Below are positions 35,554 through 56,521 of a stretch of 64,000 bases of DNA, one piece after another. The notes beneath the pieces were generated by a model, which was not told the origin of the DNA, did no database searches, and saw only the letters and a program-made list of their open reading frames with translations. Both the position numbers and the translations under genes were made by a program. Source of the stretch: a virus (lineage: Duplodnaviria; Caudoviricetes); IMG/VR virus record IMGVR_UViG_3300028832_000004, positions 32,001 to 96,000 of that record. One strand, 5' to 3'. How positions within the stretch are numbered: the first letter of the stretch is position 1; each line of letters begins with the position of its first letter.

Positions 35554-35627
35554 AACGCGTTACCGGACTCGAACCAGTGGCTTACCGGGTGTATCCGCCC
35601 GAGCTCTACCAACTGAGCTAAACGTGT
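35554..35627 (-). ncRNA. Aberrant tRNA with 8-nt anticodon loop CGGATACA
   Basis: TAGCTCAGTTGGTAGAGC D-arm and GGTTCGAGTCC T-loop; loop does not fit a 7-nt anticodon. Confidence 0.7.
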
Positions 35628-35742: not shown

Positions 35743-35967
35743 CTAATGATTCGGATCTACAAGGCGGACAAGATCGCCCACGGTCTTTATACGATCCAGT
35801 TCTGAATCGGAAATGTTGGCGCCGAACTCATCTTCCAAATCTAGTGAAATCATAAGACGCTCATAGTCATCCTCCGAAAAGACAGTTTCAAGATTGGTAT
35901 CCTCGGTGATGTCCGAAATGGCGAGGCGGTCTTCGAGAATGGTCTTAACACGATCAAATGCGGTCAT
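35743..35967 (-). CDS. Acyl-carrier-protein homologue lacking the phosphopantetheine Ser
   Basis: DRVKTIL, LEDEFG.NISD and IKTVGD fit ACP; DSLD is replaced by DDYE. Confidence 0.8.
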   Translation of the reverse strand: MTAFDRVKTILEDRLAISDITEDTNLETVFSEDDYERLMISLDLEDEFGANISDSELDRIKTVGDLVRLVDPNH

Positions 35968-36043
35968 ATACTATTCCTTAAAATAAATCGTTTGCGCGTG
36001 ATGCCCAAGCCTAAGATGAGGCATCACGCCTTCTTTTATGTAG

Positions 36044-36116
36044 GGGCAGGAGCCGGACTCGGACCGGCAACCTAGGAATTAGTATATTCCCTGCTCTACC
36101 ATTGAGCTATCCCGCC
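36044..36116 (-). ncRNA. Aberrant tRNA with 8-nt anticodon loop TATACTAA
   Basis: Acceptor GGCGGGA/TCCTGCC; D-arm GCTC-AATGGTA-GAGC; T-loop GGTCCGAGT. Confidence 0.7.
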
Positions 36117-36119
36117 ATA

Positions 36120-36428
36120 GTCCTTGTGGTTGATAGTCACTTTTCGTTCGGGAGTAGCCGAACGAGCCCTGAAGGATGCCGGGCGCTCCGTCTTCCCACC
36201 CTATTGACGGAACAGAGGGAAACTACTCCACACGGGTAATCAGCCCGTACTACGTAGCCGGTCCTGATGCAGTTTGGCCCTCCACCGAGCACTGCTTAGT
36301 CGGTAGCCGTAGCATCCGACCTACATCAGTCAGTTTTCCGATTTCCTTCAGCCTAATGCGGTCTCCAGCGCTTTGCCTCGGTCCGCTTCGCTTATCACGG
36401 TCACCTTGGCAAAACCTCATCGGGAGGT
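36120..36428 (-). ncRNA. Unassigned ~310-nt structured RNA
   Basis: Nested helices CTGAAGGA/TCCTTCAG, CTGATGTAG/CTGCATCAG, TCCGTC/GACGGA, CGTTCGG/CCGAACG; TATATT box just upstream. Confidence 0.55.
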
Positions 36429-36538
36429 GATTAAATATACATACCAAATGCTCTACACGTTGGCAGGTGCTTCGCCCCGTCTGTGACCTCGGCGTGCAAC
36501 TTGCGTATCGGTATCCCTGTCGAAACCAAGGCACCCCC
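36422..36538 (-). ncRNA. tmRNA-derived fragment without tag ORF or T-arm
   Basis: GGGGGTGCCTTGGTTTCGACAGGG...TGCACGCCGAGG 5' signature; P2 partners CGTGTAG and TTGGTAT. Confidence 0.65.
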
Positions 36539-53727: not shown

Positions 53728-53800
53728 ATTCTTTCCTTGATTCGGCACTACCTGTGTCCTTATGACTATAATATAACTTCGTTATTTGAAAAAGACACTG
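53728..53800 (-). promoter_or_regulatory. Early promoter cassette, copy 9
   Basis: GTGTCTTTTTCA (53787-53798), N11, TATATT; hairpin GGACAC-AGGTA-GTGCC. Confidence 0.85.
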
Positions 53801-53929: not shown

Positions 53930-54142
53930 GTAGGCCCAAATATGGAAGCGGCAGCATCAAGAAAATTCCAGCCTAATTTTCGCACTAGTCAAAATCATCA
54001 AAGAGCGCCACGAAAAGGGCGGGAAGCAATGCGCCGCCCGCCCTAATCAGTTTCATTCTTTTACCGCTACCCGCGAACGGACGGAGAAATGCTCACGCCA
54101 AGCAGAAACTGTAACAATAACCGCGTGTGAAGATGTTCGCAA

Positions 54143-54246
54143 TATTTGATGGGCGATTCGAACCTCCCACCTCCACCTTGATCCGGTGGCGCTCTTCCGT
54201 GGCGTGTTCACCTTTCGACGGATGAACACGTCTAAGCTAATCAAAT
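54143..54246 (-). ncRNA. tRNA-like RNA with a hairpin inserted in the D-loop
   Basis: Acceptor ATTTGAT/ATCAAAT; D-stem GCTT/GAGC enclosing CGTGTTCATC/GGTGAACACG; CCACC-GGATCAA-GGTGG; GGTTCGAATC. Confidence 0.7.
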
Positions 54247-54305
54247 ATCACTTGATGGAAGTGCCAAGTTTACGAGATCGCTTGGCACTTCCGCCCGAAT
54301 TTTAG

Positions 54306-54665
54306 TGGGCGCCGAAGGATTCGAACCTTCACAGTCTTACGACATGCAGGGAATCCATGGGAGCTTATCCCCATTTTATCCACTGCATCGCCTCGCCAGC
54401 TCCATCGTTCCAATACCGCACATTTACTTCAGCAACGATATTAGCTACATATCGTTAACCTTTCTGTTATTGGCATCTTCAGTCGTTTCAGCGATTCCCG
54501 ATCCGATCTACTCCAGCTTAGAGCGATTCCTTCACGGATCTACCTACTCCTTTATATGGCACTTTCATTAGGAATGACCAAGATCGCAGCTACAAAGAGC
54601 AACCAATGTAACCCACTTTCGGAGTCGTCAATCTTTCTCTTACTAGTGAATGGCGGAGAACGCCC
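54306..54665 (-). ncRNA. 360-nt RNA with a tRNA-like frame and large internal insert
   Basis: Acceptor GGGCGTT/GGCGCCC; T-arm GAAGG-TTCGAAT-CCTTC; variable hairpin GTC-GTAA-GAC; CGCCA/TGGCG closes the insert. Confidence 0.6.
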
Positions 54666-54688: not shown

Positions 54689-54765
54689 TGGCAGTTTTGG
54701 GAATCGAACCCATCATCGTACTAGCTTTCGAAAGCTAGGTGCTCTCCCGACTGAGCTATACTGCC
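54689..54765 (-). ncRNA. Aberrant tRNA (Arg-UCG-like) with palindromic anticodon arm
   Basis: D-arm GCTC-AGTCGGGA-GAGC; CTAGC-TTTCGAAA-GCTAG; GGGTTCGATTCCC. Confidence 0.7.
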
Positions 54766-54819: not shown

Positions 54820-54852
54820 ATAATATACGTCTTTATTTTGAAGAAGACACCG
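54820..54852 (-). promoter_or_regulatory. Early promoter, copy 10 (drives the tRNA-like island)
   Basis: GTGTCTTCTTCA (54839-54850), N11, TATATT. Confidence 0.8.
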
Positions 54853-55552: not shown

Positions 55553-56521
55553 TTAGGAAGGGACTCGGCTAACGGAAATAAGGGCCGCACCGGCCGGATG
55601 CTTCTCATCTATGGCAGCCTGTAACGTACGGACCAAGGCAACCCCTCGCATGGCGGTCGCAAACACACCGGAGATCGGCTGAGGATAGCCGACCGGCCAG
55701 TAGGAAACGAGATAGGCGATTTCGTCAGGGAAAAGTTTGTCTTCCGGCTTGCATTCAATCGGAACTTCGATGTGGTTGATTACCATCTTCGGCTTTTCTT
55801 TTAACTGGCATTCTCCAGCATCCGCCAGGCGACAGCCCAATACACCGCGCCTGCGAAGATATTCAATCTTCTTACGGGCATGCGCAACATCCCAATTACA
55901 GTCCGCAAGGACAGTTCTACAAGTGGTGGCATCAGCGCCGGTCTCAGCGGACAACGCCTGAGCCATTTCATAGCGGGCACGCACGTCTGCCGTAACGGGA
56001 GCGCCGACGTCGGCCGAAATATTAATATCCAAGCGTTTGGGCGGTTCTATCTGTTCCGTCGGGGAAACTTGCGGTGTCCAAGTCACGGTATTCTTTGCGG
56101 TCTCGCTTGCAGTCAAGCGCGTCAGCGAAATGCCAAGATGCTGGGTATCGAATGCGGTCTGCAAATCTTTTGCCCAAGTCTCGACCATCCATTCGAGGGT
56201 CGGGTTGGCTTCAACGATGTGAAGGCGGGCGGTTTCATAGTCCGACATCAAGGCGGGGGCGAGCGGATCCGCCGCATTGAAGCAGGCGCCATGATCCCAC
56301 ACGTCATCAAGGACGCGCTTGACAATTTCCTTCAACTTCTTGAAGTCAACAATCATACCATCCTTGTTAAGGCTTCCATGTTTGGAAGCCACCGTAATTT
56401 CGACCTCGTAGCGATGGCCGTGCAAATGGCGGCAGCGTTGAGCATATGATGTCAAAAGACGATGCGCTATCTCCAGCTCGGTGTAAGTAGTCAACTCAAG
56501 CATTCTTATTCCTTTGGGCAT
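55553..56521 (-). CDS. queD: 6-carboxytetrahydropterin synthase with C-terminal extension
   Basis: AHRL..Y..RCRHLHGHRY, GMIVDF, WDH, NPTLE and SETAKN motifs. Confidence 0.9.
   Translation of the reverse strand: MPKGIRMLELTTYTELEIAHRLLTSYAQRCRHLHGHRYEVEITVASKHGSLNKDGMIVDFKKLKEIVKRVLDDVWDHGACFNAADPLAPALMSDYETARLHIVEANPTLEWMVETWAKDLQTAFDTQHLGISLTRLTASETAKNTVTWTPQVSPTEQIEPPKRLDINISADVGAPVTADVRARYEMAQALSAETGADATTCRTVLADCNWDVAHARKKIEYLRRRGVLGCRLADAGECQLKEKPKMVINHIEVPIECKPEDKLFPDEIAYLVSYWPVGYPQPISGVFATAMRGVALVRTLQAAIDEKHPAGAALISVSRVPS

What the first reader, a model, noticed from the sequence alone, without database searches (positions are those of the whole stretch)
54306..54665. 360-nt RNA built as a tRNA scaffold carrying a ~250-nt structured cargo
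Seen: the 3' end is a class-II tRNA half (variable hairpin, perfect T-arm, GGCGCCC-A) whose only good acceptor partner, GGGCGTT, lies 350 nt upstream. CGCCA/TGGCG closes a large insert at the D-arm position, with helices AAGATTG/CGATCTT, GATCCG/CGGATC, CCAATA/TATTGG and AACGATAT/ATATCGTT. The anticodon arm ATGCAG/CTGCAT is itself extended by a further hairpin. GAAAGTGCCA...TGAAACG in the insert weakly recalls the RNase P S-domain. Inference: a natural tRNA-scaffolded ncRNA that uses tRNA processing to mature and stabilise its cargo.
Basis: partly seen in the sequence, partly recalled or inferred. Interest (0 to 1): 0.75.

Follow-up and report, generated by a model that had tools for sequence, protein, structure and literature searches.

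The report
Giant tRNA-shaped phage RNA gene
A cattle-rumen phage carries a gene for a 360-base RNA that has the ends and elbow of a tRNA but a conserved ~260-base folded domain in its D-loop; it cannot read codons, matches no catalogued RNA family, and sits where sister phages keep their tmRNA.

Summary
Window 54665..54306 (minus strand) encodes a 360-nt RNA closed by a 7-bp acceptor stem, with a canonical T-arm, a variable hairpin, an over-long anticodon arm and a ~260-nt domain inside the D-stem.

I found six further distinct versions in rumen phage contigs. Five lie inside large tRNA arrays, on the tRNA strand, 6-13 nt from their neighbours. Covariation supports the fold: 91% of cells pair against 35-50% when partners are slid, and 28 pairs change on both sides.

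No Rfam family matches, including tmRNA, RNase P, group I introns, GOLLD and ROOL. No reading frame is conserved.

In this phage the gene has its own promoter copy and terminator. Two complete sister genomes carry an intact tmRNA and lack this RNA. This genome has this RNA and only an ~85-nt tmRNA fragment. It is not a tmRNA: pair 3:70 is G-C in all seven versions.

Best reading: a new family of non-decoding, tRNA-framed stable phage RNAs, matured like a tRNA, whose conserved cargo acts on a still unknown partner. Expression, processing and function are not shown. The scan had already noted this family in another genome (L049 version).

The parts
54821..54850 (-). Copy of a repeated phage promoter-like 30-mer (GUGUCUU.UUCAAA....GA...UAUAUUA), 55 nt upstream of the first RNA of the array
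   Evidence: 8 copies in the window against 0 expected in shuffles. Another copy lies before the next gene at 53769-53798.
54689..54765 (-). First RNA of the unit: an odd tRNA with a palindromic anticodon arm and an 8-nt loop
   Evidence: ARAGORN and Rfam tRNA, 36.7 bits. 100% identical in L015.
54306..54665 (-). The 360-nt tRNA-framed RNA (the finding)
   Evidence: Seven distinct homologues. Curated structure has 77 pairs, 91% of cells paired and 28 pairs with double changes.
54659..54665 (-). Acceptor 5' strand GGGCGUU (RNA nt 1-7), pairing with 54307-54313
   Evidence: G1-G3:C70-C72 are invariant. Pairs 4-7 covary: CG/GC, GC/AU, UG/UA/CG.
54652..54656 (-). D-stem 5' strand CCGCC (nt 10-14), pairing with GGCGA at 54388-54392
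   Evidence: Invariant in 7 of 7 sequences. The partner is GGCGG in six of them.
54572..54633 (-). Cargo arm I: a long irregular hairpin capped by the invariant 12-nt loop UUGGUUGCUCUU (54595-54606)
   Evidence: Helices at columns 33-42/89-97 and 49-62/75-87 carry 6 pairs changed on both sides. The loop is invariant in 7 of 7.
54542..54571 (-). Nearly invariant joining strand CUAAUGAAAGUgCCAUAUAAAGGAGUAGGU
   Evidence: Alignments A5 and A6. Only 2 variable sites in six versions. L045 loses the AAAGGAG motif.
54498..54537 (-). Cargo arm II, a hairpin with loop AAGCU
   Evidence: Columns 133-172. The loop reads AAGCU, UAGCU, CAGCU or UGGCU in six versions; L045's arm II is divergent and could not be read.
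54483..54494 (-). Small hairpin UCG-CUGAAA-CGA, identical in six of seven versions (diverged in L045)
   Evidence: There is no covariation, so it is structurally untested.
54412..54477 (-). Cargo arm IV: outer helix GAUGCC/GGUAUU and inner hairpin AACGAUAU-GUAGCUA-AUAUCGUU, with conserved GCUGAAGU (diverged in L045)
   Evidence: Helices 9 and 10 have 7 pairs changed on both sides.
54345..54387 (-). Over-long 'anticodon' arm: stem UGCAG/CUGCA, internal loops, then distal hairpin AUGGGG-AUAAGC-UCCCAU. There is no 7-nt anticodon loop at tRNA distance.
   Evidence: Helices 11 and 12 have 7 pairs changed on both sides. Folds.
54334..54343 (-). Variable-arm hairpin GUC-GUAA-GAC
   Evidence: Helix 13 is 100% paired, with 2 pairs changed on both sides. 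The arm is longer in L034, L035 and L045.
54306..54330 (-). T-arm GAAGG-UUCGAAU-CCUUC, acceptor 3' strand GGCGCCC and discriminator A; no encoded CCA (the trailer is CUA)
   Evidence: The trailer CUA follows in all seven versions.
54143..54292 (-). Third RNA of the unit: a 12-bp hairpin (54257-54292) plus a tRNA-like RNA with a hairpin in the D-loop region (54143-54246)
   Evidence: z = -4.3. Absent from L015 as a 173-nt indel. A homologue lies in L045:8438-8546.
54013..54043 (-). Intrinsic-terminator-like hairpin GGGCGGG-12 nt-CCCGCCC followed by UUUU, which ends the RNA-only unit
   Evidence: It is conserved in sister phages with tmRNA, with this RNA, or with nothing in the slot.

Best explanation
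This is a real gene for a non-coding, non-decoding, tRNA-framed RNA. It belongs to a family of 360-374-nt RNAs in large cattle and sheep rumen phages that I found in no catalogue.

Shown:
- The conserved, covarying fold and the family itself.
- Residence in tRNA arrays.
- The promoter copy and terminator around the gene in this phage.
- The reciprocal pattern with tmRNA among sister genomes.

Inferred mechanism:
1. The RNA is transcribed with neighbouring tRNA-like RNAs. Here that is a dedicated unit: promoter copy, odd tRNA, this RNA, a third tRNA-like RNA, terminator.
2. The acceptor/T-arm stack is recognised by host RNase P at the 5' end. A 3' tRNA-processing nuclease cuts after discriminator A, and the CCA-adding enzyme finishes the end. 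The phage encodes no CCA-adding enzyme of its own, so host enzymes are assumed.
3. The RNA is thereby cut out precisely and given tRNA-like stability.
4. The business end is the ~260-nt D-loop domain: three arms, one mini-hairpin and nearly invariant joining strands. It is more conserved in sequence than the frame.
5. I think this domain most likely binds a partner in the host translation or tRNA-handling apparatus. The reason is that in this phage clade the gene occupies the slot where sisters carry tmRNA, and this genome's own tmRNA is reduced to a fragment.

The partner and the effect are unknown. The confidence of 0.6 is for the whole statement: about 0.9 that this is a selected, structured, non-decoding RNA gene family, about 0.7 that it is matured through the tRNA pathway, and about 0.3 that its target lies in translation or tRNA handling.
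For: - Fold: 7 distinct versions and 77 curated pairs. 91.0% of cells pair against 35-50% with slid partners. 28 pairs change on both sides against 3-9 in slid controls. No shuffle out of 500 reaches the observed values (alignments).
- Acceptor stem: GGGCGUU/GGCGCCC here, GGGGACC/GGUCCCC in L034 and L037.
- tRNA-array context, same strand: L034 starts 10 nt after tRNA-Thr. L037 lies between tRNA-Lys and tRNA-Val with 11- and 6-nt spacers. L049 lies between tRNA-Ala and tRNA-Asn. L045 lies between tRNA-Lys and tRNA-Thr.
- One copy per genome.
- Non-coding: the longest open frames differ in strand and frame between versions.
- Not a known family: nothing at the gathering score in the window and nothing at E<=10 in three members. 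ARAGORN finds no tmRNA or intron-tRNA.
- Transcription unit: promoter-like 30-mer at 54850..54821, one of 8 copies against 0 expected. Terminator at 54043..54013.
- Slot swap: the site upstream of the o53443/o53108 genes holds this array here and in L015/L016. It holds a canonical tmRNA in L004, L005, L017, L018 and L019, and nothing in L002 and L020-27.
- Reciprocity in complete genomes: G004 and G005 have an intact tmRNA (143.8 and 156.1 bits) and lack this RNA. G000 has this RNA and only the first ~85 nt of a tmRNA at window 36538..36422.
- G000 encodes no SmpB, CCA-adding enzyme, RtcB or Ro60.
Against: - No direct evidence of transcription, processing, CCA addition or stability. No RNA-seq run holds the sequence.
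- The single-sequence fold is barely better than shuffles (z = -1.57).
- The seven versions come from one habitat and a few phage lineages, so some covariation counts are inherited rather than independent events.
- L037 and L045 carry a 5-nt bulge in the T-stem, and L049 has a U-U mismatch in the acceptor stem. The frame is therefore not a perfect tRNA mimic.
- The tmRNA link rests on three complete genomes plus fragments. It could simply reflect a recombination hot spot for RNA genes.
- The partner and function of the cargo are pure inference.
Confidence: 0.6

Rival explanations
1. It is a divergent tmRNA: charged, brought to stalled ribosomes, and carrying a tag reading frame.
For: - Same size as tmRNA (356-360 nt).
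- Same genomic slot as the sisters' tmRNA.
- Acceptor GGG...CCC-A resembles tmRNA and tRNA-Ala.
- The genome otherwise has only a tmRNA fragment.
- A 12-codon frame GCU...UAA exists in five versions.
Against: - Pair 3:70 is G-C in all seven versions, not the G-U that alanyl-tRNA synthetase needs (established knowledge of AlaRS identity).
- No hit to any tmRNA model at E<=10, and ARAGORN finds no tmRNA.
- There is no sequence similarity to the sisters' tmRNA.
- The topology differs: it has a D-stem, an anticodon-type arm and a variable arm, and the insert lies in the D-loop.
- The candidate tag frame stops at codon 4 in L045 and loses its stop in L049 (read from alignment A6).
- The genome encodes no SmpB.
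Confidence: 0.05
2. It is a decoy or antidote RNA against a host defence that recognises or cuts tRNAs or other RNAs. The tRNA frame and the displayed loops would act as pseudo-substrates or inhibitors, in the manner of phage pseudo-ToxI RNA or nuclease-resistant phage tRNAs.
For: - The same phage carries at least four other non-decoding tRNA look-alikes.
- Three hairpin loops of this RNA show (A/G)GCU in six of seven versions.
- AGCU occurs 5 times in 360 nt against 1 per 405 nt in the window.
- It lies in tRNA arrays, which are thought to buffer phages against tRNA-targeting defences (general knowledge).
Against: - There is no anticodon loop, so it cannot mimic the usual target of anticodon nucleases.
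- No defence system or nuclease is linked to it.
- The AGCU enrichment was noticed after the fact.
Confidence: 0.15
3. It is a self-assembling RNA in the manner of ROOL and GOLLD, which are also found near phage tRNAs. Its arms would end in self-complementary AGCU loops that kiss between copies.
For: - AGCU is palindromic and sits in the loops of arm II, arm IV and the anticodon-type arm.
- L015's UGGCU can still pair with AGCU through a G-U pair.
- ROOL and GOLLD form homo-oligomers and lie by tRNA arrays (PMC12286853, abstract seen).
Against: - There is no hit to the ROOL or GOLLD models.
- The loops are invariant, so they cannot show covariation.
- Four-base kissing contacts are weak.
- The loops could equally pair within one molecule.
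Confidence: 0.1
4. It is a broken or intron-bearing tRNA gene, either a pseudogene or a tRNA with an 'enigmatic intron' like those reported in Lak megaphages.
For: - It has a tRNA-like frame with class-II features.
- Oversized tRNA genes with unexplained inserts are reported in gut megaphages (PMC6784885).
Against: - The insert is conserved across at least four phage lineages, more strongly than the frame, and it has covarying helices.
- It lies in the D-loop, not the anticodon loop.
- There is no group I or group II intron hit.
- Removing the D-loop insert would not give a decoding tRNA, because the anticodon arm is about 45 nt long and has no 7-nt loop at tRNA distance.
Confidence: 0.05
5. 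It encodes a micro-protein starting MKVPYK (AUG at RNA nt 98).
For: In the nearly invariant block, the only two variable sites in six versions (GUN and UAY) are third codon positions of this frame and are synonymous.
Against: - After 6-8 codons the frame is shifted by indels in L015 and L037.
- The predicted peptides differ in length (14-35 aa) and in sequence.
- There is no ribosome-binding site upstream.
- The region is embedded in a covarying RNA fold.
Confidence: 0.03

Closest known systems
tmRNA (SsrA; Rfam RF00023)
   Same: - Similar length.
- tRNA-like acceptor stem and T-arm formed by the two ends, with a large structured insert between them.
- Acceptor GGG/CCC plus A73.
- Encoded by phages; in sister phages it occupies exactly this slot.
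   Different: - Pair 3:70 is G-C, not G-U.
- It has a D-stem, an anticodon-type arm and a variable arm.
- The insert lies in the D-loop.
- No tag frame is conserved.
- There is no model match and no sequence similarity.
Phage T4 RNAC and RNAD (species 1 and 2 RNAs of the T4 tRNA region) and similar 'tRNA-like stable RNAs' of T5
   Same: - Non-decoding stable RNAs encoded among phage tRNA genes.
- Thought to be matured by the tRNA-processing enzymes.
- Their roles are still unknown (PMC3014915).
   Different: - They are about 120-140 nt, whereas this RNA is 360-374 nt.
- This RNA carries a conserved three-armed domain in the D-loop.
- Homology could not be tested here, because those sequences were not held.
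Class-II (long variable arm) bacterial tRNAs: Leu, Tyr, Ser
   Same: - 7-bp acceptor stem and 5-bp T-stem with the UUCGAAU loop.
- Variable-arm hairpin.
- Discriminator A, as in tRNA-Leu and tRNA-Tyr.
   Different: - No anticodon loop.
- The D-loop is replaced by ~260 nt.
- Positions 8-9 are CU rather than U8.
- Not recognised by the tRNA covariance model or by ARAGORN.
ROOL and GOLLD large ornate RNAs
   Same: - Large structured RNAs of phages and prophages, often beside tRNA genes.
- ROOL comes from rumen metagenomes.
- Function unknown.
   Different: - No match to either Rfam model.
- This RNA is smaller.
- It is itself framed as a tRNA.
Engineered 'tRNA scaffold' for recombinant RNA expression (PMC3753655 lineage)
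   Same: The same logic: a tRNA frame gives the cargo processing and stability.
   Different: - This one is natural.
- The cargo sits in the D-loop rather than in the anticodon arm.

Membership tests
tmRNA | G3:U70 wobble pair in the acceptor stem (alanine identity) | tested here: not met
   Column pair 3:384 is G-C in 7 of 7 sequences.
tmRNA | Match to the tmRNA covariance models or to the ARAGORN tmRNA search | tested here: not met
   No hit at E<=10 in three members. ARAGORN finds none, even at a relaxed threshold. The same tools find the sisters' tmRNA at 142-156 bits.
tmRNA | Conserved tag reading frame with a resume codon and a stop | tested here: not met
   The frame GCU..UAA has a stop at codon 4 in L045 and loses its stop in L049 (alignment A6).
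tmRNA | Aminoacylation and SmpB-dependent ribosome entry | not testable with these tools
   This needs biochemistry. The phage encodes no SmpB.
Canonical decoding tRNA (Rfam RF00005) | Cloverleaf with a 7-nt anticodon loop on a 5-bp stem and a normal D-arm | tested here: not met
   No tRNA-model hit over 54306-54665 at E<=10. The anticodon-type arm is about 45 nt long and the D-loop about 260 nt.
Canonical decoding tRNA (Rfam RF00005) | 7-bp acceptor stem stacked on a 5-bp T-stem with the T-loop UUCRANY, plus a discriminator base | tested here: met
   Helices 1, 14 and 15. L037 and L045 carry a 5-nt bulge in the T-stem.
RNase P RNA | Conserved P4 core and match to the RNase P models | tested here: not met
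   No RNase P family hit at E<=10 in three members.
Group I intron in a tRNA gene | Match to the group I core, insertion in the anticodon loop, and exons that make a working tRNA | tested here: not met
   No Intron_gpI hit. The insert lies in the D-loop, and what remains has no anticodon loop.
ROOL / GOLLD | Match to Rfam RF03087 or RF01998 | tested here: not met
   No hit at the gathering score or at E<=10.
YrlA-type Y RNA | Rfam YrlA match and a neighbouring Ro60/Rsr gene | tested here: not met
   No Rfam hit. There is no TROVE-domain gene in the genome.
tRNA-framed stable RNAs of phage tRNA clusters (T4 RNAC/RNAD type) | Non-decoding RNA gene lying among phage tRNA genes on the same strand, with tRNA-like termini | tested here: met
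tRNA-framed stable RNAs of phage tRNA clusters (T4 RNAC/RNAD type) | Accumulates as a discrete stable RNA cut out by RNase P | not testable with these tools
   No RNA run holds the sequence.

The most novel reading that the evidence does not exclude
The RNA is a functional substitute for, or antagonist of, tmRNA. It would be a tRNA-shaped RNA not charged with alanine that phages swap in at the tmRNA slot to take over or block ribosome rescue or tRNA surveillance in the host, using an all-RNA D-loop domain in place of the tmRNA body.
Probability: 0.1. Interest if true: 0.9.

Novelty: new variant of a known kind. Interest (0 to 1): 0.7.

Why it matters
Large, well-conserved structured RNAs without a known job are rare. 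Past examples such as tmRNA, RNase P, OLE, ROOL and GOLLD each opened a field.

This family adds a natural case of the design that engineers use on purpose, a tRNA frame carrying a cargo. The cargo here is more conserved than the frame.

The family is small enough, at 360 nt, for structure determination and genetics.

The reciprocal pattern with tmRNA among sister phages gives a concrete, testable lead on what phage tRNA look-alikes do. That question has been open since T4 RNAC and RNAD were described.

Tried and rejected
- INPHARED phages, blastn 'distant', with the 701-nt region: no match.
- Exact 27-mer of the 3' end in viral contigs: nothing.
- A 23-mer from hairpin III in metagenome contigs: nothing.
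- Genome-contig scan with GAAAGUNCCAUAUAAAGGAG: three Bacteroidota hits, all chance matches inside coding sequence.
- Five of the eight hits of the gapped pattern in viral contigs were chance.
- The search for related loci with the o53108 protein alone found nothing. With an alignment it found only contigs already known.
- ARAGORN with introns allowed, or at lowered thresholds, gave only forced low-scoring calls.
- Sequencing runs: no RNA holder is listed, so expression could not be examined.
- DNA contigs of four further runs gave extra variants. Most listed changes at paired sites keep the pair (9 of 13), but the list was truncated, so I do not count it as evidence.
- The alifold alternative that pairs UCUUGGUCAUUCC with the invariant GGAAGGAUGGA was rejected. 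L037 and L045 change columns 92 and 95 without compensation there, and with compensation in arm I.
- Search for a shared partner protein near the RNA in other lineages: only spurious translations of the RNA genes themselves.
- The records behind L015, L017 and L037 could not be searched whole.
- The ACP-like neighbour protein was of no use for tracing the tmRNA locus in other contigs.
- Acceptor sequences do not track each phage's own tRNA-Tyr.

Full report
**What is there.** The window is bases 32001-96000 of a complete 127,987-bp phage genome with direct terminal repeats. On the minus strand, three RNA genes stand in tandem between two small protein genes.
- (a) An odd tRNA at 54765..54689. 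It has a palindromic anticodon arm and an 8-nt loop.
- (b) The 360-nt finding at 54665..54306.
- (c) A hairpin plus a further tRNA-like RNA at 54292..54143.

A copy of a repeated phage promoter-like 30-mer lies 55 nt upstream of (a). The window holds 8 copies against 0 expected. A GC-rich hairpin followed by UUUU lies about 100 nt downstream of (c). The three RNAs therefore look like a dedicated RNA-only transcription unit.

**Check of the observation.**
- variable hairpin GUC-GUAA-GAC;
- T-arm GAAGG-UUCGAAU-CCUUC;
- acceptor 3' strand GGCGCCC;
- discriminator A, with no encoded CCA.

The minimum-energy fold closes the molecule with GGGCGUU, but it is only weakly better than shuffles (z = -1.57). 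A complementary 7-mer within 350 nt is not rare by chance (my estimate is about 0.17). The single sequence therefore proves little, and comparative data were needed.

**Relatives.**
- Neighbour-gene searches found a sister phage contig (L015/L016) with a 92%-identical copy in the same slot.
- Conserved-motif scans found copies in unrelated large phage contigs: L034 (identical to L038 and L039; 184.7 kb), L035 (identical to L036), L037 (47 kb), L049 (139 kb) and L045.
- That gives seven distinct versions of 360-374 nt, with one copy per record.
- All come from cattle or sheep rumen or gut samples.
- Outside the sister group, every copy lies inside a big tRNA array on the tRNA strand, 6-13 nt from the flanking tRNAs.

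**Structure.** On the seven-sequence alignment A6, a curated structure of 77 pairs was scored.

| Measure | Observed | Slid-partner controls |
|---|---|---|
| Cells that pair | 91.0% | 35-50% |
| Pairs changed on both sides | 28 | 3-9 |
| Shuffles (of 500) reaching the observed paired %, double-change counts or covariation score | 0 | n/a |

- The acceptor stem is the clearest case: GGGCGUU/GGCGCCC here against GGGGACC/GGUCCCC elsewhere. G1-G3:C70-C72 and A73 are invariant.
- The D-stem is the invariant CCGCC/GGCGG (GGCGA here).
- Inside the D-stem lies a ~260-nt domain with these parts:
  - Arm I, a long irregular hairpin with the invariant 12-nt loop UUGGUUGCUCUU.
  - A ~30-nt nearly invariant joining strand.
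  - Arm II.
  - A mini-hairpin, UCG-CUGAAA-CGA.
  - Arm IV, with an outer helix and an inner hairpin.
  - The invariant strand UGGAAGGAUGG.
- After the D-stem come a ~45-nt 'anticodon' arm without a 7-nt anticodon loop at tRNA distance, a variable-arm hairpin, and the T-arm.
- The cargo is more conserved in sequence than the frame.
- The loops of arm II, arm IV and the anticodon-type arm all show (A/G)GCU in six of the seven versions.
- In L037 the tip of the anticodon-type arm carries a second copy of the UUGGUUGCUCU loop.

**What it is not.**
- No Rfam family reaches its threshold, and nothing relevant appears at E<=10 in three members. That covers tmRNA, RNase P, group I and II introns, ROOL, GOLLD, YrlA and tRNA.
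- ARAGORN finds neither a tmRNA nor an intron-bearing tRNA.
- No open frame is conserved.
- A tmRNA-like tag frame (GCU...UAA) is broken in L045 and L049.
- An AUG frame (MKVPYK...) is conserved for only 6-8 codons before indels shift it.

**The tmRNA connection (new here).**
- In the sister phages, the slot just upstream of the o53443/o53108 genes is variable.
  - It holds this array in G000 and in L015/L016.
  - It holds a canonical 356-nt tmRNA in L004, L005, L017, L018 and L019.
  - It holds nothing in L002 and L020-27.
- Among three complete genomes the pattern is reciprocal.
  - G004 and G005 have an intact tmRNA and no copy of this RNA.
  - G000 has this RNA and only the first ~85 nt of a tmRNA at window 36538..36422. 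That fragment is nearly identical to the 5' part of G005's gene and lacks the T-arm.
- The second (b)-bearing phage has no tmRNA at either locus in the parts I could read.
- This is suggestive but thin. The genomes are few and related, and the slot may simply be a hot spot for RNA genes.
- The RNA is not itself a tmRNA, because pair 3:70 is G-C in all versions, the topology differs and there is no sequence similarity.
- The phage encodes no SmpB, CCA-adding enzyme, RtcB or Ro60. Any processing or partner must therefore be host-encoded or unrecognised.

**How it most likely works.**
- Shown: a conserved, covarying, non-coding tRNA-framed fold; placement as if it were a tRNA gene; a promoter copy and a terminator here.
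- Inferred from established knowledge:
  - RNase P recognises the acceptor/T-arm stack.
  - tRNAs without an encoded CCA are trimmed after the discriminator and then receive CCA.
  - The RNA would thus be cut out of its precursor and stabilised like a tRNA, and the conserved D-loop domain would be the working part.
- It cannot decode, since it has no anticodon loop.
- Its charging status is unknown. A73 plus a variable arm recall tRNA-Leu and tRNA-Tyr, but the other determinants are missing.
- My preferred guess is that the domain binds a component of the host translation or tRNA-handling machinery. The rivals are listed separately: a decoy against RNA-targeting defence, a self-assembling RNA through AGCU loops, an odd tmRNA, an intron or pseudogene, and a micro-protein.

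**Comparison with what is known.**
- The closest in logic are T4 RNAC and RNAD, stable RNAs from the T4 tRNA region whose roles remain unknown (PMC3014915).
- tmRNA is the closest by size, tRNA-like ends and genomic slot.
- Oversized tRNA genes with 'enigmatic introns' were reported in Lak megaphages (PMC6784885). Those inserts are described as introns of otherwise typable tRNAs.
- I found no description of this family in three literature searches. This is a limited search, not proof of absence.

**Earlier notes of this scan.** The same family was already noted and followed up on another genome, as the 362-nt version between tRNA-Ala and tRNA-Asn, which is my L049. That report reached the same basic reading, and I confirm it independently. 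I add four things: the sister-phage slot swap with tmRNA, the truncated tmRNA in this genome, the dedicated promoter-terminator unit, and corrected helices.

**Verdict.** This is a real, conserved, structured RNA gene. It belongs to a new family within the known but unexplained kind 'tRNA-framed stable RNAs of phage tRNA clusters'. Its function is open.

Noticed in passing
window 36422-36538 (-): Truncated tmRNA gene. The first ~85 nt (acceptor 5' strand, D-loop analogue, start of P2/PK1) are nearly identical to the intact tmRNA of sister genome G005. The sequence then diverges, the T-arm is missing, and CACCUCC follows. It scores 30.8 bits against a cut-off of 47.
   Followed up: yes
window 35554-35627 (-) and 36043-36116 (-): Two more tRNA genes with abnormal anticodon loops: ARAGORN reads an 8-nt loop ('gata') and a 6-nt loop ('ac'). 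They flank a 74-aa acyl-carrier-protein-like ORF (35743-35967, PF00550 in a homologue).
   Followed up: partly
window 54689-54765 (-): Odd tRNA whose anticodon arm is an 18-nt perfect palindrome, CUAGCUUUCGAAAGCUAG. It is 100% identical over 81 nt in L015, although the neighbouring 360-nt RNA differs by 8%.
   Followed up: partly
window 54143-54292 (-); L045:8438-8546; run X7: The third RNA of the unit is an independent module. It is absent from L015 and from two other contigs as a clean 173-nt indel. It is present at 82% identity upstream of the family member in L045, with the GUCGAAAG loop kept and its stem changed. It also occurs with unrelated flanks in another rumen sample.
   Followed up: partly
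window 1601, 3338, 3443, 36889, 42029, 48108, 53769, 54821: Eight copies of a 30-nt promoter-like element, GUGUCUUuUUCAAA....GA...UAUAUUA, against 0 expected by chance. It also stands before the o53443 homologue in all sister phages.
   Followed up: partly
L015:2213-2422: The sister phage has an extra ~200 nt between the odd tRNA and the 360-nt RNA that this genome lacks. Its content was not examined.
   Followed up: no
L037:6587-6956 (-) and L045:7963-8326 (-): Both versions carry a 5-nt bulge, AGAAU, inside the 5' strand of the T-stem. In L037 the anticodon-type arm ends in a second copy of the arm-I loop UUGGUUGCUCU.
   Followed up: partly
L034:8361-9056 (+): A 231-aa ORF with a Cys/His-rich N-terminus, which looks like a homing endonuclease by eye. 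It sits inside the tRNA array just after the family member and accounts for the longer gap there.
   Followed up: no
window 55553-56521 (-): The QueD/PTPS domain covers only residues ~10-150 of a 322-aa protein. The C-terminal ~170 residues have no family match. Homologues in the sisters vary in length (261-401 aa).
   Followed up: no
window 54044-54142 (-): About 100 nt between the third RNA and the terminator are almost identical in L015 and fold into a long hairpin. This may be a further small RNA or a processing signal.
   Followed up: no
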